Part shown: piece by piece, positions 1 to 64,000 of the stretch
Numbering within the stretch: the first letter of the stretch is position 1
How the letters are laid out: each line of letters starts with the position of its first letter
NCBI GenBank assembly: GCA_965178125.1
Contig: OZ237753.1
Coordinates: 744,001 to 808,000 of the forward strand
Direction: 5' to 3'
Source: Bilabrum cf. latius
Taxonomy: Eukaryota
Length of the DNA: 64,000 nucleotides
Translations under genes and position numbers: made by a program
Notes under the pieces: generated by a model
Told to the model about the DNA's origin: nothing
Seen by the model: the letters and a program-made list of their open reading frames with translations, nothing else
Databases searched by the model: none

Positions 1-3000
1 GATGTCCGTTCGGCTGCTTCAGAAGGCTTAGCCCACACCCGAAATCACTGAAAGACTACGGGTTTCCAAGACCGAACCTGCGAGGAATGTTGCCGCCAGG
101 GCCTAAGAAGAACTCCTTGTATGATCTGACGGTACCGTTGCGCCTCATGAACAGCAGCGCGAAGGAGCCACCCCAGCGGTCTGGCCGTGCACTTTGCATG
201 ACACGCACTGCCAGATCCTCCACGCCGTCCTGGTCCAAGTCTCCAATGGATGTCCCATGAGATCCAAACCCGTTGGACTGCTACGGGAAGTCGCCCGGCA
301 GTCCACCAGTGCCTTGCGCGATCTTACTGGCCGACACAATCTGCCCGGCAGCAACAGGCGATACAGAGGCCGAAGGTGTGATGGATGCAGTTGGCGTGAT
401 GCTGGGCGTCACCGAAGGTGTGACGGATGCGGTTGGCGTGACTGAAGCAGTTGGAGTGACACTCGCTGTCACGGATGGTGTAGGGCTCGCAGCAGGCCCG
501 CCCATGCTCACCACGAAGATCGCACCTGCATCCGTTGCCCCCGTGTCGTCCGAGATGCCGCTCAGCACCAGATTCGCACGACCGTCGCCCGTCAGGTCCG
601 TAAACGCCGCCACAATCACCAGCTGCGTGCCTGACCCCACCAGCCCAGACAGGCCTGGTGTGCTCGGCCGTAGCACCAGCACGCTCTTCACCGCATCTGT
701 GGCGCTGTCCACGTCAAGATGCAGGATGTGCACGGCGCCGTTGTTGGATCCCCCCGTGCTGTCTCGAGGCGCGCCCACGCCTACGTCCTAGATGCCGTCG
801 CCGTTCAAGTCGCCCACATTCACAACGTTGAAGCCGAAGCGGGACCCGCTCTGGATCGTGCCCGACGGCACGCCCTCCTGCCCGTCCGTGATCACACGCA
901 CAGATCCAGATGCCACTGCGCCTGACGACGTCACGGTCAGCAGCACCAGGGCGTCCGAGTCGGAGCCCCATGCGCCCACGGCCAGACTCACGGGGTGCCC
1001 TGCATGCCGCGGAGGCAGGGCCGCCATGCCTCGAGATAGGAGAGAGAGCTTCGGCGAGATGCCGCTGAGTCCACCACCTGTAGCCTGCGAGATCCTCTTG
1101 TAGCTCTTGATGGTGTCTTGCTCCGTCAGCAGCATGATCAGCACGCAGCCGCCATTTGTCACACCGTCGTCGGTGGCATCAGCTCCGACGGCGATGTCGT
1201 TGAGTCCGTCCGAGTCGATGTCTCCCAGCGTGCCGATGGGCGACGTGCTGAAGCGGTCACCAGCACCGAAGTACGCTGTGGGCAGGCCGGAGTATCCCGA
1301 CTGCAGCCTGGTGTGGTTGGTGACCTGTGCCTGGTCGTTCATGCGCACAATGAACGCGCGACCCTGACTGCTGGTGATAGTCTCGTGCCCTACAATGAGC
1401 CTGGGTTGGTCACCATTGTGTCCGTTGGGCTGGTCCAGCCGAGTCGGAGCCTGACCGAACTCCGTGCTCGAGGTGCTGCCGATGCTCTCGATGAAGTTGC
1501 CGCCCACGCCCAGCCAGTACTCGTTGTAGTCTTTCACCGTGCCGTCCGACTTCATGAACAGCAGGGCGAAGGAACCAGCGTTAGTCACGTCGCTGTGATC
1601 GCTCTGGAACACTTGCACGGCGAGGTCCGCCACGCCGTCGCCGTCCATGTCGCCGACCACGCTTGCTGTGCGGCCGAACTCATCGCCGGCCCGCGGAAAG
1701 GAGGCTGGGAAGCCACCCGCTCCTCTTGCGACTTTGGTGGCCGACACGACAACGCCGGCAGCAGCAGGTGAAGGTGATGGTGTAGGGCTCGCAGCAGGCC
1801 CGCCCATGCTCGCCACGAAGATCGCACCTGCATCCGTTGCCCCCGTGTCGTCCGAGATGCCGCTCAGCACCAGGTCCCGGCGCCCATCACCGTTCAAGTC
1901 CTGCATTGTGGCTATCAGTGACAGCTTCGAGCTGTTACTAACCAGCCCAGACAAACCTAGGGTGGTCTGGTCCAGAAGCACCACACTTTTCACGGCATTC
2001 GTGGCAGATGCTCTGTCCAGATGCAGTACCACGACCCGGCCAGAGTCCTCGCTGTGCGTGTCGTCACTGGGTAGACCCAGGCCCAAATCTGCGATGCCGT
2101 CTCCGTTCAAGTCTCCCACACTCACGAGGGCATCGCCCACACCGGAGGATAATGGCGCGTCGCTGTCCGAGATGCCTTCACGGCCCCCGGCGAGCTCGCG
2201 CACAGAGCCAGGCACCACATCTGCCGATGCGTTCAGGGTCACTAGCAACACTCGGCCGCTGCCCCATGCACCAATCGCCAGATCCACCGGGTGCCCCGGG
2301 TACCGAGGCGGCAGAGCAGCGAGTGCTGACCCTATGTTTCTACCCGATGTCGACAGGTCGGCCAGGCCCTACCCAACCGCTTGCGATACCTTGGCGTTGT
2401 GCTTGACCGTGTCGTCTGCCGCCATGAAGAAGATGTGCACGCTGCCACCGTTATACCTGCCATCGTTGGATCTGTCCGCTCCGACCGCGATATCGTTGAG
2501 CCCATCGCCGTCCAGATCGCCCAGACCGCCAGTCGATGAACCACTAAAGTGATGTCGATAGCCCGACAGCCCGCTGGGCACGCCGTTGTTGCCGTTGGAC
2601 AGCTCGGTCGCGTTGGTGACGGTGGCGCTGGTATCGAATCGGAACACGATCACTCGGCCATATTCAGACGCGTACTTGGGCTCCCCGACGATGAGCCTGA
2701 TCTGGTCTCCATGATGTCCGTTCGGCTGCTTCAGAAGGCTTAGCCCACACCCGAAATCACTGAAAGACTACGGGTTTCCAAGACCGAACCTGCGAGGAAT
2801 GTTGCCGCCAGGGCCTAAGAAGAACTCCTTGTATGATCTGACGGTACCGTTGCGCCTCATGAACAGCAGCGCGAAGGAGCCACCCCAGCTGTCTGGCCGT
2901 GCACTTTGCATGACACGCACTGCCAGATCCTCCACGCCGTCCTGGTCCAAGTCTCCAATGGATGTCCCATGAGATCCAAACCCGTTGGACTGCTACGGGA

Positions 3001-6000
3001 AGTCGCCCGGCAGTCCACCAGTGCCTTGCGCGATCTTACTGGCCGACACAATCTGCCCGGCAGCAACAGGCGATACAGAGGCCGATGGTGTGATGGATGC
3101 AGTTGGCGTGATGCTGGGCGTCACCGAAGGTGTGACGGATGCGGTTGGCGTGACTGAAGCAGTTGGAGTGACACTCGCTGTCACGGATGGTGTAGGGCTC
3201 GCAGCAGGCCCGCCCATGCTCACCACGAAGATCGCACCTGCATCCGTTGCCCCCGTGTCGTCCGAGATGCCGCTCAGCACCAGATTCGCACGACCGTCGC
3301 CCGTCAGGTCCGTAAACGCCGCCACAATCACCAGCTGCGTGCCTGACCCCACCAGCCCAGACAGGCCTGGTGTGCTCGGCCGTAGCACCAGCACGCTCTT
3401 CACCGCATCTGTGGCGCTGTCCACGTCAAGATGCAGGATGTGCACGGCGCCGTTGTTGGATCCCCCCGTGCTGTCTCGAGGCGCGCCCACGCCTACGTCC
3501 TAGATGCCGTCGCCGTTCAAGTCGCCCACATTCACAACGTTGAAGCCGAAGCGGGACCCGCTCTGGATCGTGCCCGACGGCACGCCCTCCTGCCCGTCCG
3601 TGATCACACGCACAGATCCAGATGCCACTGCGCCTGACGACGTCACGGTCAGCAGCACCAGGGCGTCCGAGTCGGAGCCCCATGCGCCCACGGCCAGACT
3701 CACGGGGTGCCCTGCATGCCGCGGAGGCAGGGCCGCCATGCCTCGAGATAGGAGAGAGAGCTTCGGCGAGATGCCGCTGAGTCCACCACCTGTAGCCTGC
3801 GAGATCCTCTTGTAGCTCTTGATGGTGTCTTGCTCCGTCAGCAGCATGATCAGCACGCAGCCGCCATTTGTCACACCGTCGTCGGTGGCATCAGCTCCGA
3901 CGGCGATGTCGTTGAGTCCGTCCGAGTCGATGTCTCCCAGCGTGCCGATGGGCGACGTGCTGAAGCGGTCACCGGCACCGAAGTACGCTGTGGGCAGGCC
4001 GGAGTATCCCGACTGCAGCCTGGTGTGGTTAGTGACCTGTGCCTGGTCGTTCATGCGCACAATGAACGCGCGACCCTGACTGCTGGTGATAGTCCCGTGC
4101 CCCACAATGAGCCTGGGTTGGTCACCATTGTGTCCGTTGGGCTGGTCCAGCCGAGTCGGAGCCTGACCGAACTCCGTGCTCGAGGTGCTGCCGATGCTCT
4201 CGATGAAGTTGCCGCCCACGCCCAGCCAGTACTCGTTGTAGTCTTTCACCGTGCCGTCCGACTTCATGAACAGCAGGGCGAAGGAACCAGCGTTAGTCAC
4301 GTCGCTGTGATCGCTCTGGAACACTTGCACGGCGAGGTCCGCCACGCCGTCGCCGTCCATGTCGCCGACCACGCTTGCTGTGCGGCCGAACTCATCGCCG
4401 GCCCGCGGAAAGGAGGCTGGGAAGCCACTCGCTCCTCTTGCGACTTTGGTGGCCGACACGACAACGCCGGCAGCAGCAGGTGAAGGTGATGGTGTAGGGC
4501 TCGCAGCAGGCCCGCCCATGCTCGCCACGAAGATCGCACCTGCATTCGTTGCCCCCGTGTCGTCCGAGATGCTGCTCAGCACCAGGTCCCGGCGCCCATC
4601 ACCGTTCAAGTCCTGCATTGTGGCTATCAGTGACAGCTTCGAGCTGTTACTAACCAGCCCAGACAAACCTAGGGTGGTCTGGTCCAGAAGCACCACACTT
4701 TTCACGGCATTCGTGGCAGATGCTCTGTCCAGATGCAGTACCACGACCCGGCCAGAGTCCTCGCTGTGCGTGTCGTCACTGGGTAGACCCAGGCCCAAAT
4801 CTGCGATGCCGTCTCCGTTCAAGTCTCCCACACTCACGAGGGCATCGCCCACACCGGAGGATAATGGCGCGTCGCTGTCCGAGATGCCTTCACGGCCCCC
4901 GGCGAGCTCGCGCACAGAGCCAGGCACCACATCTGCCGATGCGTTCAGGGTCACTAGCAACACTCGGCCGCTGCCCCATGCACCAATCGCCAGATCCACC
5001 GGGTGCCCCGGGTACCGAGGCGGCAGAGCAGCGAGTGCTGACCCTATGTTTCTACCCGGTGTCGACAGGTCGGCCAGGCCCTACCCAACCGCTTGCGATA
5101 CCTTGGCGTTGTGCTTGACCGTGTCGTCTGCCGCCATGAAGAAGATGTGCACGCTGCCACCGTTATACCTGCCATCGTTGGATCTGTCCGCTCCGACCGC
5201 GATATCGTTGAGCCCATCGCCGTCCAGATCGCCCAGACCGCCAGTCGATGAACCACTAAAGTGATGTCGATAGCCCGACAGCCCGCTGGGCACGCCGTTG
5301 TTGCCGTTGGACAGCTCGGTCGCGTTGGTGACGGTGGCGCTGGTATCGAATCGGAACACGATCACTCGGCCATATTCAGACGCGTACTTGGGCTCCCCGA
5401 CGATGAGCCTGATCTGGTCTCCATGATGTCCGTTCGGCTGCTTCAGAAGGCTTAGCCCACACCCGAAATCACTGAAAGACTACGGGTTTCCAAGACCGAA
5501 CCTGCGAGGAATGTTGCCGCCAGGGCCTAAGAAGAACTCCTTGTATGATCTGACGGTACCGTTGCGCCTCATGAACAGCAGCGCGAAGGAGCCACCCCAG
5601 CTGTCTGGCCGTGCACTTTGCATGACACGCACTGCCAGATCCTCCACGCCGTCCTGGTCCAAGTCTCCAATGGATGTCCCATGAGATCCAAACCCGTTGG
5701 ACTGCTACGGGAAGTCGCCCGGCAGTCCACCAGTGCCTTGCGCGATCTTACTGGCCGACACAATCTGCCCGGCAGCAACAGGCGATACAGAGGCCGATGG
5801 TGTGATGGATGCAGTTGGCGTGATGCTGGGCGTCACCGAAGGTGTGACGGATGCGGTTTGAGTGACACTCGCTGTCACGGATGGTGTAGGGCTCGCAGCA
5901 GGCCCGCCCATGCTCACCACGAAGATCGCACCTGCATCCGTTGCCCCCGTGTCGTCCGAGATGCCGCTCAGCACCAGATTCGCACGACCGTCGCCCGTCA

Positions 6001-8488
6001 GGTCCGTAAACGCCGCCACAATCACCAGCTGCGTGCCTGACCCCACCAGCCCAGACAGGCCTGGTGTGCTCGGCCGTAGCACCAGCACGCTCTTCACCGC
6101 ATCTGTGGCGCTGTCCACGTCAAGATGCAGGATGTGCACGGCGCCGTTGTTGGATCCCCCCGTGCTGTCTCGAGGCGCGCCCACGCCTACGTCCTAGATG
6201 CCGTCGCCGTTCAAGTCGCCCACATTCACAACGTTGAAGCCGAAGCGGGACCCGCTCTGGATCGTGCCCGACGGCACGCCCTCCTGCCCGTCCGTGATCA
6301 CACGCACAGATCCAGATGCCACTGCGCCTGACGACGTCACGGTCAGCAGCACCAGGGCGTCCGAGTCGGAGCCCCATGCGCCCACGGCCAGACTCACGGG
6401 GTGCCCTGCATGCCGCGGAGGCAGGGCCGCCATGCCTCGAGATAGGAGAGAGAGCTTCGGCGAGATGCTGCTGAGTCCACCACCTGTAGCCTGCGAGATC
6501 CTCTTGTAGCTCTTGATGGTGTCTTGCTCCGTCAGCAGCATGATCAGCACGCAGCCGCCATTTGTCACACCGTCGTCGGTGGCATCAGCTCCGACGGCGA
6601 TGTCGTTGAGTCCGTCCGAGTCGATGTCTCCCAGCGTGCCGATGGGCGACGTGCTGAAGCGGTCACCGGCACCGAAGTACGCTGTGGGCAGGCCGGAGTA
6701 TCCCGACTGCAGCCTGGTGTGGTTAGTGACCTGTGCCTGGTCGTTCATGCGCACAATGAACGCGCGACCCTGACTGCTGGTGATAGTCCCGTGCCCCACA
6801 ATGAGCCTGGGTTGGTCACCATTGTGTCCGTTGGGCTGGTCCAGCCGAGTCGGAGCCTGACCGAACTCCGTGCTCGAGGTGCTGCCGATGCTCTCGATGA
6901 AGTTGCCGCCCACGCCCAGCCAGTACTCGTTGTAGTCTTTCACCGTGCCGTCCGACTTCATGAACAGCAGGGCGAAGGAACCAGCGTTAGTCACGTCGCT
7001 GTGATCGCTCTGGAACACTTGCACGGCGAGGTCCGCCACGCCGTCGCCGTCCATGTCGCCGACCACGCTTGCTGTGCGGCCGAACTCATCGCCGGCCCGC
7101 GGAAAGGAGGCTGGGAAGCCACTCGCTCCTCTTGCGACTTTGGTGGCCGACACGACAACGCCGGCAGCAGCAGGTGAAGGTGATGGTGTAGGGCTCGCAG
7201 CAGGCCCGCCCATGCTCACCACGAAGATCGCACCTGCATCCGTTGCCCCCGTGTCGTCCGAGATGCCGCTCAGCACCAGATTCGCACGACCGTCGCCCGT
7301 CAGGTCCGTAAACGCCGCCACAATCACCAGCTGCGTGCCTGACCCCACCAGCCCAGACAGGCCTGGTGTGCTCGGCCGTAGCACCAGCACGCTCTTCACC
7401 GCATCTGTGGCGCTGTCCACGTCAAGATGCAGGATGTGCACGGCGCCGTTGTTGGATCCCCCCGTGCTGTCTCGAGGCGCGCCCACGCCTACGTCCTAGA
7501 TGCCGTCGCCGTTCAAGTCGCCCACATTCACAACGTTGAAGCCGAAGCGGGACCCGCTCTGGATCGTGCCCGACGGCACGCCCTCCTGCCCGTCCGTGAT
7601 CACACGCACAGATCCAGATGCCACTGCGCCTGACGACGTCACGGTCAGCAGCACCAGGGCGTCCGAGTCGGAGCCCCATGCGCCCACGGCCAGACTCACG
7701 GGGTGCCCTGCATGCCGCGGAGGCAGGGCCGCCATGCCTCGAGATAGGAGAGAGAGCTTCGGCGAGATGCTGCTGAGTCCACCACCTGTAGCCTGCGAGA
7801 TCCTCTTGTAGCTCTTGATGGTGTCTTGCTCCGTCAGCAGCATGATCAGCACGCAGCCGCCATTTGTCACACCGTCGTCGGTGGCATCAGCTCCGACGGC
7901 GATGTCGTTGAGTCCGTCCGAGTCGATGTCTCCCAGCGTGCCGATGGGCGACGTGCTGAAGCGGTCACCGGCACCGAAGTACGCTGTGGGCAGGCCGGAG
8001 TATCCCGACTGCAGCCTGGTGTGGTTAGTGACCTGTGCCTGGTCGTTCATGCGCACAATGAACGCGCGACCCTGACTGCTGGTGATAGTCCCGTGCCCCA
8101 CAATGAGCCTGGGTTGGTCACCATTGTGTCCGTTGGGCTGGTCCAGCCGAGTCGGAGCCTGACCGAACTCCGTGCTCGAGGTGCTGCCGATGCTCTCGAT
8201 GAAGTTGCCGCCCACGCCCAGCCAGTACTCGTTGTAGTCTTTCACCGTGCCGTCCGACTTCATGAACAGCAGGGCGAAGGAACCAGCGTTAGTCACGTCG
8301 CTGTGATCGCTCTGGAACACTTGCACGGCGAGGTCCGCCACGCCGTCGCCGTCCATGTCGCCGACCACGCTTGCTGTGCGGCCGAACTCATCGCCGGCCC
8401 GCGGAAAGGAGGCTGGGAAGCCACCCGCTCCTCTTGCGACTTTGGTGGCCGACACGACAACGCCGGCAGCAGCAGGTGAAGGTGATGG
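1..8488. repeat. Intragenic near-identical tandem array: unit A (1302 bp) and unit B+linker (~1410 bp), A+B period 2712 bp
   Basis: Sequence at 1 recurs at 2713 and 5425; sequence at 6194 recurs at 7496. Order from the N-terminus is A-A-B-A-B-A-B(partial). Copies differ by a few SNPs and one 18-bp indel in the TPTASV linker. Confidence 0.95.
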
Positions 8489-8629
8489 GGAAGGTCCAGT
8501 TGCATTTACGGAAGATAGCATTGCTGCACATATTGCTACCGTCAAGCCACTGGTACTCGTGCGATCATTGGCCTTGAAACGCCCCATGCGACCGGTAGTT
8601 GGTTGTCGTTCTGCTCTCATTGTTTGCAT
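1..8629 (-). CDS. Large secreted/surface protein of tandem FG-GAP (integrin-alpha-like) beta-propellers; 3' end runs off the window (>2,870 aa)
   Basis: One frame from ATG 8629 to base 1 once TAGs at 7496, 6194, 5705, 5480, 5081, 3500, 2993, 2768, 2369, 788, 281 and 56 are read through. Signal-peptide-like 'GLTVAICAAMLSSVNA'. Many GD(L/M/I)(D/N)GDGxxD(L/I)AVGA motifs, one spanning a TAG (GDLNGDGI*DVGVGAP). Start Met uncertain (several nearby). Confidence 0.85.
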
Positions 8630-11320: not shown

Positions 11321-14300
11321 TTAACGTCCTTGCTAGTACCTCGCCCACTCGCTCCTGCACATGGGACACTTGTTGTCACCTGAGCTCTGGAACCAGCGGA
11401 GCACGCACGCCCCATGGAAGCCCTTCCTGCATGTCCCGCACTGCTCCGTGGGCAATCGCATCGAGCCTAAGCTGATCACGCTGTAGCAGATTGGGCACGG
11501 TTCCGCCCCGGAGAGCTCCTGGTCAAGGTTCTTCTTCCACAGTGCCACCGCGTCAGCGAACGTCCCGTCTCGATTCGTCAGCAGCGCCATGAGCTGCATC
11601 CTCCATCGCTGCCACTGGGACTTGCCCAGCCCGCACTGGAAGTGCACCTTGGGCTTGTCAAGGGGGTAGGCCGGCGGGACCTCAATGGTGGCCTTTAGCG
11701 CCACTTCGTCCTGTATGTACTGCGCCACTACTTCCCCGGTCTCGCGGTGTACCTTGACTGAGAAATCGTCCAGTTCCCAGTCGTTCTCCTCTGCCGCCGC
11801 CTTGAGGGCGACTTCCTGCCCCGCCAAGATTCGGGGCTGCACGTCGATCTTAACGTGCTGGCGCAGCTGTTGCGTCCTCTGTTTGCCTAAGCTGCGCGCC
11901 CAGCTGGATGATTTGGCTGGGAAACCTTCCAGTACTGTGTGCAGCAGCTCACCCGCCAGCCCGCGCACGCTCCAGGGATGCGGGCCCATGGAGGCTCGGG
12001 CTAGAGTCGGATGCAGGTCACTGCCGGGATGCGCATCGCACGGGGCAGCTAGGGATACCGCCATCTGCTCACCGGCACCAATATCGGTGGGGCTGCCGTC
12101 CTCGTGAGCAAGAGACAAAGTACAAGAAGGCAAGTCGCGACCTAGCGTAATCGCACCCTTACCAGTCTGCAGCCCGGCGCATGCAGCATCCGCGAACGAG
12201 TCTGCAACTTCATCGATCAGTTCGAAGCCACTGTGACTGCCACCCAAACGAACCCCGCCGTCGTCCAAGCTCGACACAGTCTGGGCGCCGAGCCACAGGG
12301 ACAGGCTCCTCATGGCATCATCGCGGGCGATGCGCAGGTCCCTGAGGCCCTCAGCGTCGCTCGGAGAGGACGATCCGTCAGGATTCACATCGTTAGTTTC
12401 ATCCGGACTGCATGCGACAGGAGGAGTAGCAATGCCGGGGCCGAGGACGCCCTGCAGGCCTGCGCTGGCGAGCGCCCTGTCTCGCCTATTCGACGGCGGA
12501 ATCTTCGTGCTTCCAATGGTCCATGGCCTGCTTTGGAGGGCGCGACGGCGGGTGCTTGGGCCGTCCGAGGTGCTCTATCCTGGGTCGGGGCTAGAGTCAA
12601 GCGGAGCCTCTGCACCTATCAGAGCACTCTGATGGGTCAGGTCAAGATCGACGTCAGACCGCCGTGCATCCAGCACGTCGATCCCATTCGACAAAGGAAT
12701 GCCCGGAAGGTTCAAGTCCACCCCAGACGGAAGTCCAACCGCAGTGGCTACCCTAAGGACGTGCGATGCCATGCAAGCATCTGCCACCGCGTCCCCGCCG
12801 GCGAATTTCCACTCGTCCACAGCACCGCTCCTGACCTGGATCCCGGCAGCTGCCTTGCCAGCCTTTGTCGCCGACATGCGAACAGATGCCTGCCTTCGAT
12901 TCGCAGTCTGGGCACACGTGCACACAAATGATAGCAAGTTCTACAGCTGGGCCGGCGTGTGCTCGATCCCTGCGGAAGCCTTAGTCCATAGCAACGTTGC
13001 AATGCGTGCCTACTGCGCAGGTGACAGGGAGCCGGAGAGTGCGCTCTTCACTAGGATGAGCCAGATGATGAGCGATCGGCGCTCAAGGCACGGGCGGGGC
13101 AGGCGATCAAGCGCATGCAGGATGCATGGACCGGCCACATCGAGGACCCGCCTCGCCGCGCCCTTGCCTCCGAAGCAGGCCGATCGCATCGCTGCGCGAC
13201 CGGCCTCGCTCGTGCTGCCCACGCTATCGCCGCATACGTCGATCCCGCTGCTCTCCCCTCGAAGCATAGGGGATCCCTATCCAAGCGAGGCGACTCCATC
13301 TTCTCCAGGAACCCCCTCCTCGCTGAAATCAATCGCATCACCCTCTTGCATCGCGGCCAACATCCCCTCCCGCATCTTCCGGGCGTCCTCGTCCTCGTCC
13401 TCTTCTTCGTCAGCTTTCGTATCCTCGTCATCTACAGAGTCGTCGCTATCCGCCGCGGCAGCGGGAGCCTACGGCACAGATTCTTCGGGCGCACTCGCTC
13501 CAGCCCCACTGGATGGTCCCGCACCTGCCGTTGGAGGTGAGTTGCTTGCGCCGTGCGCACGGCGATGCTCGCGAACAGTCCGCCCCGCGGACCGCAGGCT
13601 AGAGCCAGCCTACTCGTCATGCTCACCAAGCAAATCAAAGGAGATCCACTCGCGTAGTCCTAATGGCCATGTAGATCCACCACTGCTGCCTGCCGCGGCG
13701 CCAGCAGCCAGCTGCTTGCCTCCCTTCAGCTCGCGCTCGATCGCACCTAGAAGCACCTTGCCGCGGCCCAGCATTCCCGCAATGCGAGCCTCACGCACCC
13801 AGTCACCTGCAGCGAGGAGCCCGAGCGCCCCGGCCAACAATGCCAAGCACTGCTTGGGATTAAATCCTCGGGCCAGTAGCACGCACTCCTTGCCGTGTTC
13901 AGTTTCCCATGCCAGCGACTGCGACGCCCAAAGCACGTCCACTGCACGTGATGCGAGGAGACTCGCAGCGGCATGCACCGTCCACTGCTCGTCTGCGGTC
14001 GGCGACGTATCCCTTACGCTAGCCAATGCCAGACTCGAGCCAGGCAGGCCCGTTGAATCGCTACGCATCATACCCATTGCAACGACAACGGCACTAGCAG
14101 ACGCTGTGGCATTGGACGCGGACTCCCTTGCTTGGTCATATGCGCCTGAGCTGGCAAGCAGTCCAGCCAGCGTGTCGCAGGCAGCGATTGCCGCCATTGA
14201 TGCTTCCACAGGCCCTTCAGACTGGACGATCCGGATCAAATCACTGTCCAGCTGCCTGCGCAATGCCCGAGGCTACGGGTCCGCCGCGCGACGAGACTGC

Positions 14301-17300
14301 ACGGCACTCGGACGGAAGTGTATCCTCGATAGATGGAGTAGCGCAGTGGTCCCCACAGTGCCTTGCCCCATGCCCAAACCATCACTACGATCCACCGCGC
14401 CAGGCGCGCTTGGCACACCAGATCTAAGCCCAACCTCTTCAATGGCACCGTCAAGCCTGGCTACGGTCGATGGTGGAAGCGAGCCACGAATGCAAGAGAT
14501 GGGCAGCAGCTGAGTGATCTCTTCAATACTTGCCCTATAGGCTGTACTTGCCCCATCAGAGGCTTGCGGCTCGGAGATGCCAGCGGCACTGATCCCGCTC
14601 CCTGGAGTTGATGCAACGACTCCAGCACCAGCGGCACTGTCATCCTCATCCTCCCCAGCGATGCCAAACCCCGAGCTGACCGCACCGCTGTGGGCGCTGC
14701 TTGTACTAGTGGTCGTTGTTGTATCGCCTGAGCCCAATAACTTCAGCGCTCTGAGAGAATAGCCGCTGCCCACTGCCACAGCAGCCTCGAGCTGTGAGAG
14801 AACGCCGGCTGCAAGAATCCTGTGCCCAAGCACGTCGCAGCACAGTCCAGTTGAAGCACAAGCAGCGATGGCATCCAAGGGATCGACTGGTCCATCCGTC
14901 TTCGGCTGTATACTGTTCATGATCTCTAATAGAATGGGCTTCGGCGCGCCTGCAGCGGTGATAGTTGGGGACGTTGACACAAGCCCTGTCCGAACAGCCC
15001 CCAGCACGCTCAGTGCATCACTCCCATCCGCCTACACCTTGACATCTGTCGATGGAACGCCTTCGACCTGAAGCCGAATTGCAGAAACGAGTCTCACCGC
15101 ATTCTGAAAGCCAAACAGCGCGGATAAGGTGGCAATGACGCGAGCTTGCCCCTCAGGAGCAGAGCCCGGCGAAACATCCACAGCCAACCGAGCTGCACAG
15201 TCGCGCACTGACGCCAGCAGTAGCGCAACTCTCAGCCCCTCATCTCCTTGCAAGAATGAAACAACGTTACTGTCTGCATGCTCGAGCTGTTCCTTTGCCA
15301 CAATCGGCTCCCAAGCAACCAGCAGCCGCCTTGAAACTGCTGGTGAGATAAACATGCGACCGTCTGCCCCGCCATCTGCAGTTTGAAACAGGTTCAACCT
15401 GCTGAGAGCTTGAGATGCCTCACAAGGGCTCTTGCTCAGCATACACACGGCCAGCAGCTGCACCATCAGACGACGGATTCCAACGGAGCTGAGCTCGGAT
15501 TGGCACTTCGTGGCAATCGCGCTCAGGAGGTGCTCCACTGCTGCAGCCCGGATCTCTGCCGTGGAAACGACCGCCTCAAGCACCTCATCTGCCGCACGGT
15601 GCCCTCCTCCACCGACAGCATGCTCAACCCTTGCAACTGCAGCCTCCAGAAGGTCCTGCGGCACTCGACTGCCAGGGCCAGCGAGCCGGAGCTGCTCGGA
15701 CAGCATTGCAGAGAGCCTCGATACAGTAGGATTCAGATCAATGGCAGCAGCTCCGTCACCTGAGAGCCGGTCTTCTAGCGAAGCATGCGTCTTCAGTGCC
15801 AACCACCTAGCTAGTGACGCGCCCGCGTCCTGTTGACTCATTTTAAATGACTCCTGCAACTAAGCCCAAAGAGTACCCGGCGACGCCTCGCCTAGTCCGT
15901 CAAGTACGTTCCACAATTCATGTGCTTGGTCTCGCTTCGACAAGCTGGCATCAGCAAACAGGACCCGCCCGCACGCAGCTACAACGGTTTCTTTCAGTTG
16001 GCTCACGGCATCTCTGCAAGCGGCCTCCCAGCCATCGCCCAACTGGCCGAGTGCTGCCCCTACGTGACGCAAGGCAGTCGGCGACTTGCCCAGCAAAATA
16101 TCGTGCAGTTGCTGTAGGAAGCCCTGAGCAGCTTCACGCAGATCCCCACTGGCACGTTCTGGCTGCTCCTCAGACTGATCGCTTGGCAGCAAGTCCAGCG
16201 AAAGCGGCAGAGCAAGGGTGTCGCCTGTGGCGATAGCAGTACCGTTCATTGCAATAAAATGCAGACAAGACTGGGCGGCATCACTCGCACCAACACGATG
16301 ACTTGAAGCAGCTCCTCGCTCTCTAGAGGCTTCCGCAGCAGATACAGTTGCTGCATCGCTCGCCGGTGACGGTGACGGCACCCCGCCGAGCGCCTGGTGG
16401 AGAGAGCTCCAGCACAAGCTGTGGGTCCGTTGCGACGAGCTGAGCTCATGCAAAAGCGAGGAAGCATCGTTATTTCCTGCTAAAGCCCCTTGAGCAACCA
16501 CCAAACCGGCTTGTTGCAGAGTCTGTGGCAGGCAGGCAGCTATCCCCAGTGGGTAGTCCAGGAGACGTGCGATCTGTTGACTCCCACCGGCCCCAGGTGA
16601 ACCTGACACCCCCCGAGCCAACTCAGCGTCCACGTCACCAAGTAGGTCGGCCACAATTCCGGCACTTCTGTCCGGAGACTTGCTCCTCCGTGCCTCGACC
16701 ACACCTCGCAGCCGGCCCATGCACGCCCCCAGCGCTGTAGCCGCAGGTACTGATGGCATCAGGCTGGCCTATGCATCCCCGGCAATCACAACAACATCGT
16801 CTGCGTTGCGATCAACCCCAGTCCCAGCGGAAGTTGCCAGTTTCATGCACACACCCCGCACTGCCTCAAGGAAAATTCTATCTGGCGAGCCGTCCGGTCC
16901 AGCCTCCGCCTTGGTCGCGAGAGACACCAGGATCGCAAGACACCTGCCGGCGGTGGCATGCTCGTCCTTCCCAAGAGCTGCAGCTTCGATGCACCGCACG
17001 CACATGTCGAGTGCGAGCAGCGCAGGGCACCCCGCACCTTTACTCTTCTTTCCCTTCCCTTTCCCCTTCTTCTTGCCTCCCTTGGACTGCGACAGCCCCC
17101 CAGCGGAAGCGGCACTTGCTCCGTCCGCCCCATCGCTGGACACTATCCCTTGCAGCAGCAGCTCTCGCGGAACGTTCGTCAGTGCAACCTCGATCGCAGG
17201 AGCCAAGCGGCCGAGTGCACCTCCACGGGCCGAAAGCCTGGCTGCACCGCCCAATGCCAGCCCCAGCGACTGTTCCCTGGCCATGCTCGCCCACACTTCA

Positions 17301-20955: not shown

Positions 20956-21368
20956 ATTTTGATACACAGTGCCCTGAGAATAGGCATACTGCCTCGGTGA
21001 GAGCCAGTGGATTCTGCGGGGCATCCCGTGGATAGCGAACCAATACGAATGTTCGTCAATACGCTCCGCATGCCTGCGTGCAGCGTGCTTGCGCAGGTTC
21101 GAAGAAGCTAGTAGCACGATACGCTTTGACCTATTCGGAATTGGAACGCTATGGCGGCAGGTATGCCCACGCCGAGCCAGAGTGCGAAAATTGGTGGGGA
21201 CAGCAGCACCAGCGACGACAATGAACATTTTCCTAGCAACACGACTAGCCAGCAGGTCCGTCCTGCAGGCAAGCCGAGACAAACAACAATTCGAAGCACC
21301 AGCAAAGCGCCCCCCCCCCCCCCCTTTCAACAGGTGAAAAGGGCAACCCCTAGGTCCTCCGCATGGGG

Positions 21369-23597: not shown

Positions 23598-23769
23598 GTC
23601 CAGCGGCAATATACCCACGGAATGCGCAGTTGATCCAGAGCCGGGAGGGATTGCAAGCTGAAAGAGCGGTCCAGCTGCACCCTGGTGACTGTTCCTGTTT
23701 TTCCGGGTTGCCGAGTAGGCGCGGCGTAGTCTACGCCGGGCAGGTTGGCATGGTTATAATCTCGAAGCA

Positions 23770-39000: not shown

Positions 39001-39051
39001 GAAGCGGCGGGAGGTAGCGGCGAAGACGAGCCAGAGGCGGACGGCGAGTGA
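30019..39051 (+). CDS. GAF-domain class I cyclic-nucleotide phosphodiesterase, ~2,920 aa; exons 30019-30297, 30467-30754, 30847-39051
   Basis: Three GAF motif sets (e.g. 'CDRITMFVVD...GFAGHVAQTG...LLAVPV...EAINK...FTSFDE'). Catalytic 'FHSFAHG...HDVDHPGINN...VLENHH...ILATDM...HSADVS...EFQQQ'. Nine TAGs (30094, 30689, 33829, 33835, 34195, 34462, 34948, 35578, 35581); ends TGA. Confidence 0.9.
30298..30466 (+). other. Spliceosomal intron (169 nt) in PDE
   Basis: GTGAGG...GCGCAG; joins two halves of GAF-A that lie in different frames. Confidence 0.7.
30755..30846 (+). other. Spliceosomal intron (92 nt) in PDE
   Basis: GTGAGC...TCGCAG; the join gives the GAF helix FSVFLGE|SMHRLGLYE. Confidence 0.8.
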
Positions 39052-45700: not shown

Positions 45701-46716
45701 TCGCCAGCTCGTACAGCACACAGCCGAGGGACCAGACGTCGCTCTTGGCATCGTAGCCGCTTCCTTTGAGGACCTCTGCGCTCATGTACAGGGGCGTACC
45801 CACCTTACTGAACGCCTCGAGCGTGTTGTCGGAAAGGAACCGGCCGAGGCCGAGATCTCCGAGCTTCACGGTTCCGTCCAGAGTGAGGAAAATGTTGGCC
45901 GGCTTGATGTCGCGGTGGAGAACGCGATTTTCATGCATGTACGCGATCGCTCTGCATATCTAACAGAAGAATTTCCACACCACTCGTTCGTCGAATCGTG
46001 CATCGCGCTCGCGGGCCTTCCTTAGCTACCGCTTCAAATCGCCAGCCTCGGCGTACTCGAAAACCAAGTGCAGCTGATCTTCTTCAATAAACGATTCAAT
46101 ATATTCGATTATGTGGGGGTGCCGAAGAGATTGCACAAGGTCGATTTCTTTCAGGCACTTCTCGCTGCGATGACACTCAAAATCGGAAAATGCAAGCAGG
46201 GCAGCTGCAAGAGACGAGCCAAATATGAACGAGGCGGTTCGGGAGTTTAATTGTGGCACTCACCGGCTGCGATCATCCATCATGTCGAATATGCGGATCT
46301 TCTTCATCGCGACGAGCCGACCGTCCGAAAGCCGTTTCGCCCGATACACTACTGAAAACTTGCCTTTACCTGCATTCGCATGGGATTGTGGCCATTAATC
46401 GGGCAAAGTACTGTGCAGTGCGGACACAAATCTCGGTGGGCCCACGAATCGGGGGGCGGGCTATTCGATTCGCGTTCTGAACGAGGATCGCACAGACTCG
46501 ATTGAAAGACAGCGAAACGGTCTAACACTCACCTATTGGCTTCATAACATCGTACTCATTCAGCTTTCCGGTGCTCACGGGTACTCGAACCTTTCCATTC
46601 ATGCTGATTGCAGCCGACGGACGCTCATCGTGCTCGTGTCCTGCGTCTTCACAATGTATATCCGAGCCGTGCGCAACGCCTGCGTCCATTCTAGTAGGAT
46701 CACGAGCTTCTGACAT
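42786..46716 (-). CDS. NIMA-related (NEK6/7-like) kinase fused to a C-terminal IFT57-like region, ~1,222 aa; exons 46716-46533, 46369-46264, 46164-42786
   Basis: Kinase 'IGKGKFSVVY...VAMKK...HRDIKPANIF...KLGDLGLGRF...VGTPLYMSAE'. IFT57-like 'LSRGFGKGLVWMLHWLA', 'EWAAEVERVWPLL', 'TDAGPVVRLKSALRGLRKEIKSMDSRIG'. TAGs at 46026, 45960, 44397, 43533, 43515, 43449, 42930; ends TGA. Confidence 0.88.
46165..46263 (-). other. Spliceosomal intron (99 nt) in NEK gene
   Basis: GTGAGT...TCGCAG; the join gives MMDDRSR|EKCLKEIDL. Confidence 0.88.
46370..46532 (-). other. Spliceosomal intron (163 nt) in NEK gene
   Basis: GTGAGT...ATGCAG; the join restores the Gly-rich loop KPIG|KGKFSVVY. Confidence 0.88.
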
Positions 46717-60356: not shown

Positions 60357-62501
60357 ATGTCGCGTGCAGCAAGAGAGGAAGTCGAGAATGCAAGAATGAA
60401 GGGAATCCTGCCGCCGGAGCGAGATAAGAATGGGTAGCTCGTGAATCCGCATATTCCGGCGTTTATGTCGGCGGTCCCAATCTGGATGAAAAGCGATAGC
60501 GATGGCCCGAGCCTTCAGCATCAGCGATTGGAGAAGGCCCCCGAGAAAAGCACTGAGTATGAAAAGAAGCGAGACCCGTACGCGAGGTACGATCCGAAGC
60601 AGTACCGCGAGGTGATCCGGCGCTACGAGCGACTGGAAAAGGAACGTGAGCGGGTTCTCAAGGAGGCCAAGGAGTCCGGAAAGGCAGACGAAGCATCAAA
60701 GCCCGAGTCGGACGAACAGGTTGATATGGAACAGGAACTGCAGAGGTACTCGGAGGCGGTCAAAATGAACGTCCGGAACCTTAGGAAGCGCGAGGACACG
60801 GCCAAGTACTTGCTCAACCTATCCACGGCGCCCGAGTTTTTCTACGACGGCAAAGCGCGCTCGATGCGAAGCAATCCGTTCCCGAATTCCAAGCCTGGGG
60901 AGCACGAGTACGAAGGCGACCTGATGTACGAGGGGACTGGCGAGGCCCCGCAGCTGGTGAGCGCACAGGCCTTCGCCTTCGACGCCCAGCAGCACGGCGT
61001 GGACACGCACGTGTTCGCAACCCCCACTGCGCTCTCCCTCATGATGACGGACCACGACAAGAAGAAAGAGGAGGCCAAGAAAGCCAGGGCGAGGGCCATC
61101 CAGGAGGCATACGGCAGCTCGGGGGCAGCCGCGCGGGCCACCGATGGGTCCCTCCGCCCCGCCGGCTCCGAGGCAGCCCCCGGGGCCCTCAGCGTCCCCC
61201 GCTCGCTTCTCATGGGCCAGTCGGGCGCATACGTGGAGTATGACGCGGAGGGCCGGCCCGTGGTCGGGGGCGGCGCCGCGCGGAGCGGTTCCGCATCCTC
61301 GTCGTCTGGCGGCAAGGGGAAGGGATAGGGCACCGAGCAGAGCTAGGGACCAGCCAGGAGCAAATGGCCCGAGGACCGGCGCGAGTTTGGCCACCGGGCG
61401 GTGTGGGGGTCCTGGTGCTGCCCGGTGACTCGCCGGTGGGGGTACGCCTGCTGCTTCTGCTCCGAGAGGGGGGCCCCTTGCGCGGGGCTGGCGGGGCGGG
61501 CGGCGTGGCGGCTGGCGGCGAGACTGAAAGGGGCTTCGATCCCAGGGGATGCGCCGGGGGCTCTGGAGGCGGCTCGGGCGCGGCGGCGGGTCAGGGAACA
61601 ATCGCAGGGTGGTGTGACAGCTGCAAGCGCAGGTGCAGGTGCGGGCACACGCGCGGGTTCGGGCGCAGATGCCATGCCTCAGCACCCCCGGCTCAACACC
61701 GCTCGTTCGGGGGCCGGGTTTGACGGGGAAGAGCAGGACGAGGACGGGCCGGGAGGCAGCGGCAGCCGTGGCCCCAGCCTAGCGGAGCAGGTGCGCGAGG
61801 CGAGGGCGAGGGGGGAGGCTGTCCCCGAGGTGGGGTCATTCCGAGAGGCGGCTCGCAAGGAGGTGAAGGAGGTTTGGGGAACAAAGGGGGGTCGCGGGGG
61901 GGACGCTGATGGGGGCTTGGATGGGGGCGCATCGCTGGGTTAGAAGCGCGGGGGCGCCGTTCTCGGGAACGCTGCTATCGACCTTGGGGGTGGGAGGGGG
62001 GGGCAGGCGCTACTCGACTCCATCAAGGACTCGGATGATAAGTTCCGCAACATGGGCGGCGCCGCGCGGAGTGCCCCTGGGCTGGATCGCAGCGGCGTGC
62101 ATCAGGCCCTGGAGCAGGAAAAGGCGAGGCAGCGAGCGACCGAGGCCGAGGCAGGCCAAGGGGGGACGGCTGCAGGGCCTCGGTTCGGGGCGGGGAGGGA
62201 GCTCGGGCAGAAGGCCAAGAGGGGCTGGGCGGGCAGGGAACAAGGGGGTGCCGGCGGCGGGGGGGATTCCTCGAGCGAGGAAGAGGAGGATGACGGAACC
62301 TCGGGCGCCGCGCGAAGGATCGCCGCGAAGCGCCGGCGGAAGGCCATCCGGGACGCGGTCCGCAGGGGCTTGGATCCCGAGACCGCGGCACGGCGCGTGG
62401 ATGGGGCCGCTTCCGGCAGTGGGGATGGTCGCACGGCGGAGGAAAAAGAGGCAGAGATGCTGCTGCAAAGGAGACCCGAGGATCCGATGGCCCAGGGGTG
62501 A
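60357..62501 (+). CDS. SLU7: Pre-mRNA splicing factor SLU7, ~714 aa, without the CCHC zinc knuckle
   Basis: 'PPERDKNG*LVNPHIP', 'SLQHQR', 'KRDPYARYDP', 'VRNLRKREDTAKYLLNL', 'YDGKARSMRSNP', 'SKWPED...GHRAVWGSW...WGYACC', C-terminal 'RRPEDPMA'. TAGs at 60435, 61326, 61344, 61941; ends TGA. Confidence 0.92.
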
Positions 62502-62686: not shown

Positions 62687-64000
62687 TCAGGTCCTGCCTG
62701 CCTCGGACCCAGCTCCACTGGCAGGCGGACTCTCTCCGCCGGATGGCTCCGACGTGTCGCCATCCTGAACGGCGTGCTCGTCTCCGTGGCTAGTAGTGGC
62801 ACCGTCGGGATGCTCGCCTGCGTTGCCGGGATCCTCTCCGCTCCCGGTTTTCCTGTCGAAATCGTCCCACCGAAGCTCCTGGTCCCACAAAACAACCCCG
62901 CCGGTGGAATCCGTAGCAAGCGGAGGCAGCGCAGATCGCCTCGAATTGGAATCGCCGTGATGCTCTGAAGACCGCATTTCTTCACCGCCATGTCCCGGGC
63001 TCGGCGAAGATCTGCTTGAAGCGGACTCGTGCGAAGACTCGCGGTGCCCCTCCGTGTCCGTGTCACCTTCCGCCGCGTCGCTCGCAGCGTGAGAGGCTGT
63101 CGGCATGCCGTCTAAATTGCGGGCAACAGACCACGGAAAGGCGCTGGAAGGGTACTTTGCAGCGTTGCTAATGTCCTGTACGGAAGCACACTCGGGGGAC
63201 GGTGCCGCGGAGGCTTCCCGCGGCCCAGCCTATCTCTTGCTCCTCGAGCAGTTGCTTCGGTGCCGTTCCACGTCATCGAAGCTGAAGCTATCCCACGAAA
63301 CGACCTCCTCGAGGGCATACCTGGGTGTAGGCTCATCGCGTGATTCACTGTCTGCGGTGGAACTGTCACTCTGGTCGTCCTTCAATGGATACCCTGTGGC
63401 AATCACCATCGCAACGTCGAACCGCGGCGGCACCCCCAGCGCCTCTCGCACGGCCGGGCCGTGCAATCCCTCCATGGGCGACGTTGCGAGTCCAGCCGCC
63501 TCGCAAGCGAGAAAGTAGTATCCTGCCAATATGCCAGCTTGCTTTAGCGCCCAACCTTCGGCAGAGTGCGCAGTCGGTATCCTGTTTGGCCCCAGCACGG
63601 CAGATGCAACCAGCAATGCGGCCCGCTTGATTTCCTGGGCCTACGGGCCGAGCGCACCCCCGACTAACACGGCTATTTTTTCGCCCAACCCATCAATGTA
63701 TGCGGCTGGCTTCTGTCCGGCAGCTCGTTCCAGCGCCTCCAACCGGTGCAGCGTTCGCACCGCCTCCTTGTCTGCAAGAAGCACGACTGAAGCCGGGGCT
63801 TCCAGCACTCGCTTCGCGTTGGCACCAGGCATGCAATTTGCTATTGCTCGCTTTGTCTCTTCCTTAGATGCAACCACGAAGCGCCAAGGTTGCAAATTGA
63901 AACTCGAAGGTGCTCGTAGAGATACTTGAAGAACTTGTTTCAGCACCTGTGGATCCAACTATTGCTTGGTATCAAATATATGCACTGACTTCCTGTCTTT
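62687..64000 (-). CDS. Nitroreductase-family FMN protein; 5' end beyond the window
   Basis: 'RKSVHIFD', 'APSSFNLQPWRFVV', 'AAGLATSPMEG', 'LGVP...VIATGYP'. TAGs at 63959, 63641, 63230; ends TGA at 62687. Confidence 0.88.

What the first reader, a model, noticed from the sequence alone, without database searches (positions are those of the whole stretch)
1..64000. Non-standard nuclear genetic code: UAG is a sense codon (most likely Gln) throughout this genome
Seen: 13 of 15 genes are broken only by in-frame TAG (about 82 by hand count), never by TAA, TGA or frameshift. Reading resumes in the same frame and domain each time, including in conserved housekeeping genes (SLU7, LTN1, myosin, NEK kinase, PDE). 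TAGs fall inside folded motifs and even in tandem (TAG TAG at 35578). Known: UAG=Gln with UAA/UGA as stops is NCBI table 15; nuclear UAG-only reassignment is very rare (reported for the fornicate Iotanema and a few phyllopharyngean ciliates; UAG=Leu in a rhizarian). Inference: this GC-rich, non-ciliate-looking flagellate may be an independent, possibly undescribed origin.
Basis: partly seen in the sequence, partly recalled or inferred. Interest (0 to 1): 0.97.

Follow-up and report, generated by a model that had tools for sequence, protein, structure and literature searches.

The report
UAG read as glutamine, stramenopile-like protist
This stretch of a protist nuclear genome uses the stop codon TAG as an ordinary glutamine codon and ends its genes with TGA or TAA, a rare kind of genetic-code change that here seems to sit in a lineage where none has been reported.

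Summary
Confirmed. With TAG read as sense, the window resolves into about 14 compact eukaryotic genes: listerin, myosin, GAF-phosphodiesterase, a NEK-IFT57 fusion, SLU7 and two giant FG-GAP proteins. They carry 80 in-frame TAG and no in-frame TAA or TGA. Reading TAA or TGA as sense lengthens nothing.

Spliced contigs from three runs of two other studies carry at least 23 of these TAGs unchanged, so editing, splicing and assembly error are out.

The residue is glutamine. In a 90-95% identical sister organism found in metagenomes and public assemblies, TAG and CAG swap at three NEK sites. A fourth window TAG is Gln and one is Ala. All four C-termini of the sister's standard-code protein fragments (six fragments, two assemblies) fall just before a window TAG or CAG. 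Five more distant relatives have CAA or CAG at both NEK sites.

Twelve genes end in TGA (10) or TAA (2).

The myosin groups with Cafeteria inside stramenopiles. Seven literature searches found no nuclear stop-codon reassignment reported there.

The tRNA-Gln(CUA) and the eRF1 could not be examined, because no genome is held. Occasional termination at TAG is not excluded.

Verdict: a new lineage with a known code type (NCBI table 15).

The parts
2..8629 (-). FG-GAP repeat surface protein gene; the 3' end runs off the window. It carries 12 in-frame TAG (7498, 6196, 5707, 5482, 5083, 3502, 2995, 2770, 2371, 790, 283, 58). These are 5 distinct sites copied by 2712-nt repeats.
   Evidence: Pfam FG-GAP 8.5e-74; TAG list; repeat alignment; repeat offset 2712
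11321..18589 (-). Listerin (LTN1) gene with 13 in-frame TAG. It ends in TAA at 11321-11323. The last TAG (11335) lies 4 codons before that stop.
   Evidence: Pfam UBC_like/RWD 5.1e-21 plus RING at the C-terminus, downstream of 12 TAGs
18790..21228 (-). CBS-domain protein gene; 4 in-frame TAG; ends in TGA.
   Evidence: Pfam CBS 1.1e-18
22806..23618 (-). HAD-family hydrolase gene; no TAG; ends in TGA.
   Evidence: Pfam HAD_2 1e-20; stop codon
23770..28440 (-). Myosin gene, main exon. 3 in-frame TAG, all in the coiled-coil tail (24507, 24480, 24090). Ends in TGA.
   Evidence: Pfam Myosin_head 5.1e-223 over profile 1-679
28441..28535 (-). Intron of the myosin gene (95 nt, GT..AG on the minus strand), phase 0.
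   Evidence: Joint in contigs of X5, X6 and X7 but not X1; boundaries
28772..29752 (+). WW + R3H domain protein gene; 5 in-frame TAG (29057, 29099, 29177, 29213, 29432); ends in TGA.
   Evidence: Pfam WW 2.8e-08 and R3H 8.4e-06
30467..39051 (+). GAF-domain cyclic-nucleotide phosphodiesterase gene, with exon 30467-30754 and exon 30847-39051. 8 in-frame TAG (30689, 33829, 33835, 34195, 34462, 34948, 35578, 35581; the last two are adjacent). Ends in TGA. At least one further exon lies upstream of 30298.
   Evidence: Pfam PDEase_I 7.3e-61 at aa 2477-2710 and GAF; joints and in-frame splicing
30298..30466 (+). PDE intron (169 nt, GT..AG).
30755..30846 (+). PDE intron (92 nt, GT..AG), phase 0. It joins the GAF exon in frame to the main frame.
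39256..40710 (+). Gene of unknown family (no Pfam hit). 3 in-frame TAG (39289, 39355, 40705). It ends TAG-TAA.
   Evidence: The RNA contig starts at 39233, so the likely start is ATG 39256.
40856..42625 (+). MIT-like protein gene; 6 in-frame TAG (41045, 41312, 41354, 41453, 41555, 41564); ends in TGA.
   Evidence: Weak Pfam MIT match, 0.00031, below the curated cut-off; RNA contigs 40835-42763
42786..46164 (-). NEK kinase-IFT57 fusion gene, main exon. 7 in-frame TAG (46028, 45962, 44399, 43535, 43517, 43451, 42932). Ends in TGA.
   Evidence: Pfam Pkinase 2.3e-54 and IFT57 2.7e-18 in one frame; NEK7 is the best PDB match; one contig spans it; the same fusion is seen in relative L003
46165..46263 (-). 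NEK intron (99 nt, GT..AG on the minus strand). A second intron lies at 46370-46532 (163 nt).
   Evidence: the intron position is shared with L001
47279..59815 (+). Giant (4178-codon) membrane protein gene with FG-GAP, cadherin and ephrin-receptor-like domains, six copies of an unnamed repeat, and a C-terminal membrane span. 12 in-frame TAG (49100, 50177, 50561, 52493, 53336, 53672, 54323, 54509, 54587, 54626, 57113, 59330). Ends in TGA.
   Evidence: Pfam; sister-organism fragments
60357..62501 (+). SLU7 splicing-factor gene; 4 in-frame TAG (60435, 61326, 61344, 61941); ends in TGA.
   Evidence: Pfam Slu7 2e-52; 96 homologues
62687..64000 (-). Nitroreductase-domain protein gene; the 5' end runs off the window. 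3 in-frame TAG (63961, 63643, 63232). Ends in TGA.
   Evidence: Pfam Nitroreductase 1.6e-24; PDB alignment

Best explanation
The window is nuclear DNA of a GC-rich, intron-poor, flagellated protist, probably a stramenopile near the bicosoecids. Its translation system reads UAG as glutamine. UGA (mostly) and UAA terminate.

Shown here:
- UAG sits inside functional, transcribed, spliced and selectively constrained coding sequence.
- UAG is interchangeable with CAG between close relatives.

Inferred from how such codes work elsewhere:
- A tRNA-Gln with anticodon CUA decodes UAG. It would arise from tRNA-Gln(CUG) by one anticodon change, and it cannot read UAA.
- The release factor eRF1 has lost efficient recognition of UAG while keeping UAA and UGA.

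The change looks evolutionarily young and is shared by at least one sister species. TAG makes up only about 10% of Gln codons and is absent from the myosin motor. Two genes carry a TAG within five codons of their present stop, as expected if old TAG stops were read through to the next TAA or TGA.
For: 1. Frames.
- TAG=sense gives frames of 4178, 2876, 2733 and 2425 codons. TAA=Q and TGA=W give none longer than 1345 and 1422.
- There are 80 in-frame TAG and no in-frame TAA or TGA in about 18,600 codons. About 369 TAA+TGA would be expected at the off-frame rate.

2. Domains.
- Pfam domains run through TAGs or lie downstream of them.

3. Transcripts.
- Contigs of X5, X6 and X7 (two studies other than the DNA source) join exons across five GT..AG introns that the DNA contig X1 keeps.
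- They end near gene boundaries.
- They show no other letters. 23 of the 29 in-frame TAGs in 28000-47500 lie in the listed X5 pieces.
- Splicing keeps the frame.

4. Glutamine, from the NEK gene.
- Compared with sister L001/L002, 260 codons show 126 synonymous and 28 non-synonymous differences.
- The TAG sites read TAG/TAG at 46028, TAG/CAG at 45962, CAG/TAG at 45659 and CAG/TAG at 45491.
- Five distinct, more distant relatives have CAA or CAG at both window sites.
- Human NEK7 has Q at the second site and M at the first.

5. Glutamine, from the giant gene.
- Six sister fragments from two assemblies are 89-90% identical to the window protein.
- They show Q at window TAG 53336.
- Their four distinct C-termini fall immediately before window TAG 53672, TAG 54509, CAG (aa 2720) and CAG (aa 2787).
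- All three fragments of each assembly lie on one contig.

6. Stops.
- 10 of 12 complete genes end in TGA and 2 in TAA.
Against: - No tRNA gene lies in the window or in the ten related loci scanned. No genome is held. So neither the tRNA-Gln(CUA) nor the eRF1 was seen.
- One window TAG (54323) aligns with Ala in the sister.
- Distant-homologue columns at 11 FG-GAP and cadherin TAG sites are dominated by A, T, S, D, G, P or L, not Q. Sites in SLU7, the myosin tail, nitroreductase and GAF align with K, N, R, E, A, L, P, I or Y. These are variable positions, but taken alone they would not have pointed to Gln.
- The library type of X5-X7 is not on record, and the tool marks X5 'probably DNA'.
- Two of the four fragment ends could be contig ends rather than stops.
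- TAG close to the terminal stop in 2 of 12 genes could mean that TAG still terminates there.
Confidence: 0.88

Rival explanations
1. UAG has two meanings. It is Gln inside genes, but it is still recognised as a stop near the 3' end of some mRNAs, as position-dependent stops are in some ciliates and as UAA is in Blastocrithidia.
For: The unknown gene ends TAG-TAA (40705-40710). Listerin has a TAG 4 codons before its TAA, about where a fungal listerin ends. By my arithmetic, 12 genes x 5 codons x 0.0043 gives about 0.26 such cases expected, so two or more has P of about 0.03.
Against: The same pattern is expected from relic TAG stops that are now read through to the next stop. Every gene has a TGA or TAA right at the end of its conserved sequence. 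The sample is only 12 genes. No 3'-end or ribosome data are available.
Confidence: 0.07
2. UAG is a sense codon for an amino acid other than Gln. Elsewhere it is Leu (a rhizarian), Ser (Scotinosphaera) or Glu (some ciliates).
For: Distant-homologue columns at many sites favour T, S, A, L or K rather than Q. One sister comparison gives Ala. NEK7 has Met at site 46028.
Against: At 4 of the 5 sites where the window and the sister differ at a TAG, the partner is CAG/Gln, in alignments that are 90-95% identical. Five further relatives have CAA or CAG at both NEK sites. One of those sites is Q in human NEK7.
Confidence: 0.03
3. There is no reassignment. The genes are pseudogenes, the TAGs are assembly or sequencing errors, the TAGs are removed by editing or splicing, or they are passed by inefficient near-cognate read-through.
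For: None specific. The run types of X5-X7 are not on record.
Against: Only one of the three stop codons occurs in frame. TAGs stand unchanged in spliced contigs from two other studies. TAG positions are conserved in a sister organism under purifying selection, with 126 synonymous against 28 non-synonymous differences. A gene with 13 TAGs could not be made by leaky read-through.
Confidence: 0.02

Closest known systems
Iotanema spirale (Fornicata): nuclear UAG=Gln with UAA and UGA kept as stops (PMC5304391; abstract and passages read)
   Same: The same code: UAG alone is reassigned, and to glutamine. That paper predicts the same mechanism, a tRNA-Gln(CUA) plus an altered eRF1 N-domain.
   Different: A different supergroup: a metamonad anaerobe, against a stramenopile-like GC-rich aerobe with a nitroreductase and a flagellar gene. 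In Iotanema UAA is the primary stop; here TGA ends 10 of 12 genes. The eRF1 change seen there (T32G) could not be looked for here.
Protocruzia tuzeti and phyllopharyngean ciliates with UAG=Gln (PMC11687900; Discussion passages read)
   Same: UAG-only reassignment to Gln, arising independently several times.
   Different: Those are ciliates. This window shows a compact conventional chromosome stretch of at least 64 kb with spliceosomal introns, and its myosin groups with stramenopiles.
UAG-only reassignments to other residues: rhizarian exLh (Leu), Scotinosphaera (Ser), ciliate PL0344 (UAG=Glu, UAA=Lys) (passages of PMC11687900 and PMC5304391)
   Same: UAG and UAA are uncoupled.
   Different: The residue here is Gln, by codon comparison with relatives.
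UAR=Gln codes (table 6 type): hexamitin diplomonads, ulvophytes, Streblomastix, Amoeboaphelidium (listed in PMC11687900)
   Same: UAG is read as Gln.
   Different: In those, UAA is also Gln. Here there is no in-frame TAA, two genes end in TAA, and TAA=Q lengthens no frame.
Code 15 in crAss-like phages (PMC9523058; search listing only)
   Same: TAG=Gln.
   Different: That is a phage strategy inside a standard-code host. This is a cellular nuclear genome.

Membership tests
Nuclear code with UAG=Gln and UAA/UGA as stops (NCBI table 15 type) | In-frame UAG inside conserved protein-coding genes, with frame and domain continuing | tested here: met
   80 in-frame TAG in 12 of 14 gene models. Pfam domains span TAGs or follow them.
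Nuclear code with UAG=Gln and UAA/UGA as stops (NCBI table 15 type) | UAG is present in mature mRNA, not edited or spliced out | tested here: met
   Spliced contigs of X5-X7 carry the TAGs with no other letters; 23 of 29 TAGs in the laid stretch lie in listed X5 pieces. Caveat: these are contigs, not raw reads, and the library type is not on record.
Nuclear code with UAG=Gln and UAA/UGA as stops (NCBI table 15 type) | UAG positions correspond to Gln in relatives | tested here: met
   Three TAG/CAG swaps and one shared TAG in the NEK gene. Q at 53336 and A at 54323 in the giant gene. CAA or CAG in 5 distinct relatives at both NEK sites. Four of four fragment C-termini fall before a window TAG or CAG. 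Distant homologues are uninformative.
Nuclear code with UAG=Gln and UAA/UGA as stops (NCBI table 15 type) | UAA and UGA are not used as sense and still terminate | tested here: met
   TAA=Q and TGA=W do not lengthen the gene frames. 10 of 12 complete genes end in TGA and 2 in TAA, right after their last conserved domains. The zero in-frame count is partly by construction.
Nuclear code with UAG=Gln and UAA/UGA as stops (NCBI table 15 type) | A tRNA-Gln gene with anticodon CUA | not testable with these tools
   No tRNA in the window or in the ten related loci scanned. No genome is held.
Nuclear code with UAG=Gln and UAA/UGA as stops (NCBI table 15 type) | eRF1 with an altered stop-recognition domain | not testable with these tools
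   The eRF1 gene is not in the window, and there is no genome to search.
Position-dependent (ambiguous) stop codes | The same codon is both a frequent sense codon and the regular terminator of genes | tested here: inconclusive
   Every frame reaches a TGA or TAA. But 2 of 12 genes have a TAG within 5 codons of it. There are no ribosome or peptide data.
Stramenopiles, near Bicosoecida (taxonomic placement) | Groups with that clade in gene trees | tested here: inconclusive
   One gene only. The myosin falls in a 19-tip clade (support 0.992) whose only named members are 3 Cafeteria proteins, inside a clade of stramenopile sequences. The best named hits are stramenopiles. The best named SLU7 hits are fungi and green algae. 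There is no 18S.

The most novel reading that the evidence does not exclude
This is the first nuclear stop-codon reassignment in stramenopiles. A bicosoecid-related clade of at least two species reads UAG as Gln: the window's organism, and a 90-95% identical relative present in metagenomes and public assemblies.

The switch is recent enough to have left traces:
- relic TAGs just upstream of present stops;
- TAG making up only about 10% of Gln codons;
- no TAG in the myosin motor.

The relatives at 61-76% identity show CAA or CAG at the same sites and may still use the standard code. If so, the whole transition could be bracketed in a GC-rich, compact genome.
Probability: 0.5. Interest if true: 0.85.

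Novelty: new member of a known kind. Interest (0 to 1): 0.72.

Why it matters
Nuclear codes in which UAG changes meaning while UAA stays a stop are very rare. The passages read list only about eight cases. They break the usual coupling of UAA and UAG, so each independent case tests ideas about how tRNA(CUA) and eRF1 co-evolve.

This case has three useful properties:
- It lies in a GC-rich heterotrophic flagellate lineage with a small, intron-poor genome.
- It has close relatives that share the code.
- It has more distant relatives that have Gln codons at the same sites.

Together these would let the order of events be worked out: tRNA gain, eRF1 change, loss of TAG stops.

There is also a practical point. 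Standard-code gene calling cuts this organism's proteins into pieces. The sister's giant protein sits in public collections as three fragments per contig. Annotation and phylogenomic pipelines will therefore mis-handle this lineage.

Tried and rejected
- tRNA scan of the window and of ten related loci: nothing. Rfam: nothing. Tandem Repeats Finder at score 200: nothing.
- No RNA holder is listed on record for the stretch. The argument from transcripts rests on spliced contigs only.
- Residue from distant homologues: not decisive.
  - SLU7: 96 hits, all about 35% identical or less.
  - Myosin-tail sites.
  - Nitroreductase, IFT57 and GAF alignments to PDB chains.
  - FG-GAP and cadherin columns from 147 representatives.
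  - All gave variable, non-Gln columns.
- Internal repeats of the FG-GAP gene: either too identical or too diverged to help.
- Listerin search: 1 hit only.
- A MAFFT run timed out and was replaced by phmmer alignments.
- One PDB query was out of frame and was corrected.
- Two scans of genome contigs found no relative of this organism, only two bacterial-MAG kinases at 28-32% identity.
- The genome search on the metagenome loci: the records are not held. So the longer contigs of the 61% relatives could not be read to learn which code they use. Their NEK-IFT57 frame of 638 codons has no TAG. At the window's rate about 2.7 would be expected, which is not significant.
- The listing of cluster members gave no organism names for the nearest myosin and SLU7 hits.
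- Supplementary files of papers were not consulted. The eRF1 alignment of PMC5304391 is in a supplement.
- Rejected readings: pseudogenes, editing, TAG-bearing introns, a ciliate origin, and a TAA or TGA reassignment.
Full report
**What is in the window**

The 64 kb is 62.5% G+C. Under the standard code it is cut into many medium-sized frames, the longest 1345 codons. Reading TAG as sense joins them into frames of 4178, 2876, 2733, 2425, 1564 and 1157 codons. Reading TAA or TGA as sense extends no gene frame (longest 1345 and 1422).

The long frames are ordinary eukaryotic genes:
- an FG-GAP repeat protein;
- listerin, with its RWD-like and RING domains at the very C-terminus;
- a CBS protein;
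- a HAD hydrolase;
- a myosin (motor domain E = 5e-223);
- a WW/R3H protein;
- a GAF-domain phosphodiesterase whose catalytic domain lies about 880 codons after its last TAG;
- a protein with no Pfam hit;
- a weakly MIT-like protein;
- a NEK kinase fused to IFT57;
- a 4178-codon FG-GAP/cadherin membrane protein;
- SLU7;
- a nitroreductase-domain protein.

**The observation**

With starts refined from the transcript contigs, I count 79 in-frame TAG in 13 models. One more lies at 30689, in an upstream PDE exon. That makes 80, in 12 of 14 models. There are no in-frame TAA or TGA.

In-frame TAG occurs at 0.0043 per codon, about the off-frame rate of 0.0050. At the off-frame rate TAA+TGA would give about 369 in-frame hits. 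The zero is partly by construction, since I delimited the frames by TAA and TGA. The independent evidence is that single Pfam stretches cross TAGs (kinase, Slu7, nitroreductase, cadherin) and that C-terminal domains lie beyond up to 12 TAGs.

The 12 TAGs of the first gene are only 5 independent sites copied by 2712-nt repeats. The tandem TAG TAG at 35578 is real.

**The TAGs are in the RNA**

One search found seven runs that hold the stretch. None is on record as RNA. I laid the contigs of X1, X5, X6 and X7 on 28000-47500.
- X1 holds the whole stretch as one unspliced contig.
- Contigs of X5, X6 and X7 come from two other studies. They join exons across five intervals that have GT..AG ends once the tool's cut offsets are applied: 28441-28535, 30298-30466, 30755-30846, 46165-46263 and 46370-46532.
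- These contigs start and stop near gene ends.
- Splicing keeps the reading frame. The GAF exon joins the main PDE frame in phase 0.
- No differing letter was reported anywhere. 23 of the 29 in-frame TAGs of that stretch lie inside listed X5 pieces with 0 other letters. The remaining 6 are not in the listed pieces; 103 pieces were not shown.

I read these contigs as cDNA. The library type is not on record, and the tool labels X5 'probably DNA'.

**Which amino acid**

Distant homologues did not settle this. TAG sites fall mostly at variable positions:
- SLU7: K, N, R or E;
- nitroreductase: P or K;
- GAF: E, I or Y;
- FG-GAP and cadherin: A, T, S, D, G, P or L.

Close relatives did settle it.

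A scan of metagenome contigs with the NEK domain found 39 loci. L001 and L002 are 95% identical in protein and carry TAGs of their own. In 260 aligned codons there are 126 synonymous and 28 non-synonymous differences. The TAG sites read:
- 46028: TAG in the window, TAG in L001;
- 45962: TAG in the window, CAG in L001;
- 45659: CAG in the window, TAG in L001;
- 45491: CAG in the window, TAG in L001.

Five distinct, more distant relatives (the L003 group, L009, the L012 group, L014 and L019; 61-76% identity) have CAA or CAG at both window sites. Human NEK7 has Q at 45962 and M at 46028.

The one exhaustive protein search, with the giant protein aa 1700-2700, returned three fragments at 89-90% identity. 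A cluster look-up added a second set of three from another assembly, each set lying on one contig. These fragments have Q at window TAG 53336 and A at window TAG 54323. Their four distinct C-termini fall immediately before window TAG 53672, window TAG 54509, window CAG (aa 2720) and window CAG (aa 2787). One assembly has Q where the other fragment ends. Two of these ends could be contig ends.

In total, at 4 of the 5 sites where the window and the sister differ at a TAG, the partner is CAG/Gln. TAG behaves as a synonym of CAG.

**Termination**

Of 12 genes whose 3' ends lie in the window, 10 end in TGA and 2 in TAA.

Two genes have a TAG very close to the stop. The unknown gene ends TAG-TAA. 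Listerin has a TAG 4 codons before its TAA, near where a fungal listerin ends. About 0.26 such cases are expected by chance (my arithmetic). I read these as relic TAG stops now read through. Occasional termination at TAG cannot be excluded.

TAG makes up 10.2% of presumed Gln codons (79 of 771). It accounts for 0 of 45 Gln codons in the myosin head and neck, where P is about 0.008 by 0.898^45. This hints that TAG is still avoided where accuracy or speed matters.

**Who it is**

Among 5.8 billion proteins the nearest myosin is 48% identical. The best named hits are Cafeteria roenbergensis (46%) and other stramenopiles.

In a FastTree of 121 motor domains the query sits in a 19-tip clade (support 0.992) whose only named members are three Cafeteria proteins. 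That clade lies inside a clade of stramenopile sequences.

Cafeteria is also GC-rich (about 70%). Its genome paper mentions a non-standard code only for the mitochondrion (passages).

This is one gene. The best named SLU7 hits are fungi and green algae, and there is no rRNA in the window. I give 'stramenopile' about 0.75 and 'near bicosoecids' about 0.5.

**Mechanism**

Shown here: UAG is translated, and as Gln. Inferred: a tRNA-Gln(CUA), which pairs with UAG but not UAA, and an eRF1 with weakened UAG recognition. Both were argued for Iotanema in PMC5304391 (passages). Neither molecule could be examined here.

**Comparison and novelty**

Passages of PMC11687900 list the known cases in which UAG and UAA differ:
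- a rhizarian (Leu);
- Iotanema (Gln);
- Scotinosphaera (Ser);
- Protocruzia tuzeti (Gln);
- phyllopharyngean ciliates (Gln twice, and Leu);
- ciliate PL0344 (Glu for UAG, Lys for UAA).

None is a stramenopile. Seven full-text searches combined UAG, genetic code or stop-codon reassignment with stramenopile, bicosoecid, Cafeteria, Bigyra or Opalozoa, or looked at 2025-26 papers. They found no report of a nuclear reassignment in stramenopiles. The library holds open-access papers and bioRxiv only.

The code itself is known: table 15 reads TAG as Q. The lineage appears to be new.

**Limits**

The evidence comes from 64 kb plus a few kilobases of a sister organism. It rests on contigs rather than raw reads. 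There is no tRNA, eRF1, peptide or ribosome data, and the taxonomy rests on a single gene.

Noticed in passing
42786-46164 (-), and L003 1-2660: A NEK6/7-like kinase and IFT57 are encoded in one frame, and one transcript contig spans them. The 61%-identical relative L003 also runs from the kinase straight into an IFT57-like N-terminal region in one frame. So this is a conserved kinase-intraflagellar-transport fusion, not a by-product of TAG read-through.
   Followed up: partly
40705-40710 and 11321-11337: Two genes have a TAG 1 and 4 codons before their TAA stop. These may be relics of former TAG stops, or sites where TAG still terminates.
   Followed up: partly
25738-28437 (-): The myosin head and neck use no TAG among 45 Gln codons, against 10% overall. 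All 3 myosin TAGs are in the coiled-coil tail. The last 600 codons of the PDE also have none, among 19 Gln codons.
   Followed up: partly
2-8629 (-): The FG-GAP gene is built of alternating A and B units of about 434-470 residues, with a 2712-nt period. Copies of one type are nearly identical. This points to recent expansion or gene conversion, or to an assembly that may have collapsed or expanded.
   Followed up: partly
56700-58700 (+), inside 47279-59815: The giant protein holds six copies, about 120-145 residues apart, of an unnamed domain marked by a conserved 10-residue motif (starts at aa 3144, 3287, 3404, 3528, 3672 and 3793). No Pfam family matched that part.
   Followed up: no
8700-11320 and 21400-22800: Two stretches of lower G+C (about 0.55) have no long frame under any of the codes tried. 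They lie between divergent or tandem genes and are presumably intergenic or promoter regions.
   Followed up: no
42760-42763: The transcript contigs of the convergent MIT-like and NEK-IFT57 genes overlap by 4 nt at their 3' ends. 3' UTRs are very short, about 25-140 nt.
   Followed up: no
L018 1-2576: A second NEK-like kinase, with 6 in-frame TAG in a 556-codon frame (G+C 0.55), comes from the same metagenome as L002. It is probably another gene of the sister organism using the same code.
   Followed up: partly
window 28000-47500 in runs X5-X7: Near-identical spliced contigs of this organism occur in runs filed under two other organism labels (B and C), in two studies other than the DNA source.
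   Followed up: no
22372-22719 (+): A small lysine-rich ORF with a C-terminal hydrophobic span matches RAMP4 weakly (E = 0.00063, below the cut-off). It has no TAG.
   Followed up: partly
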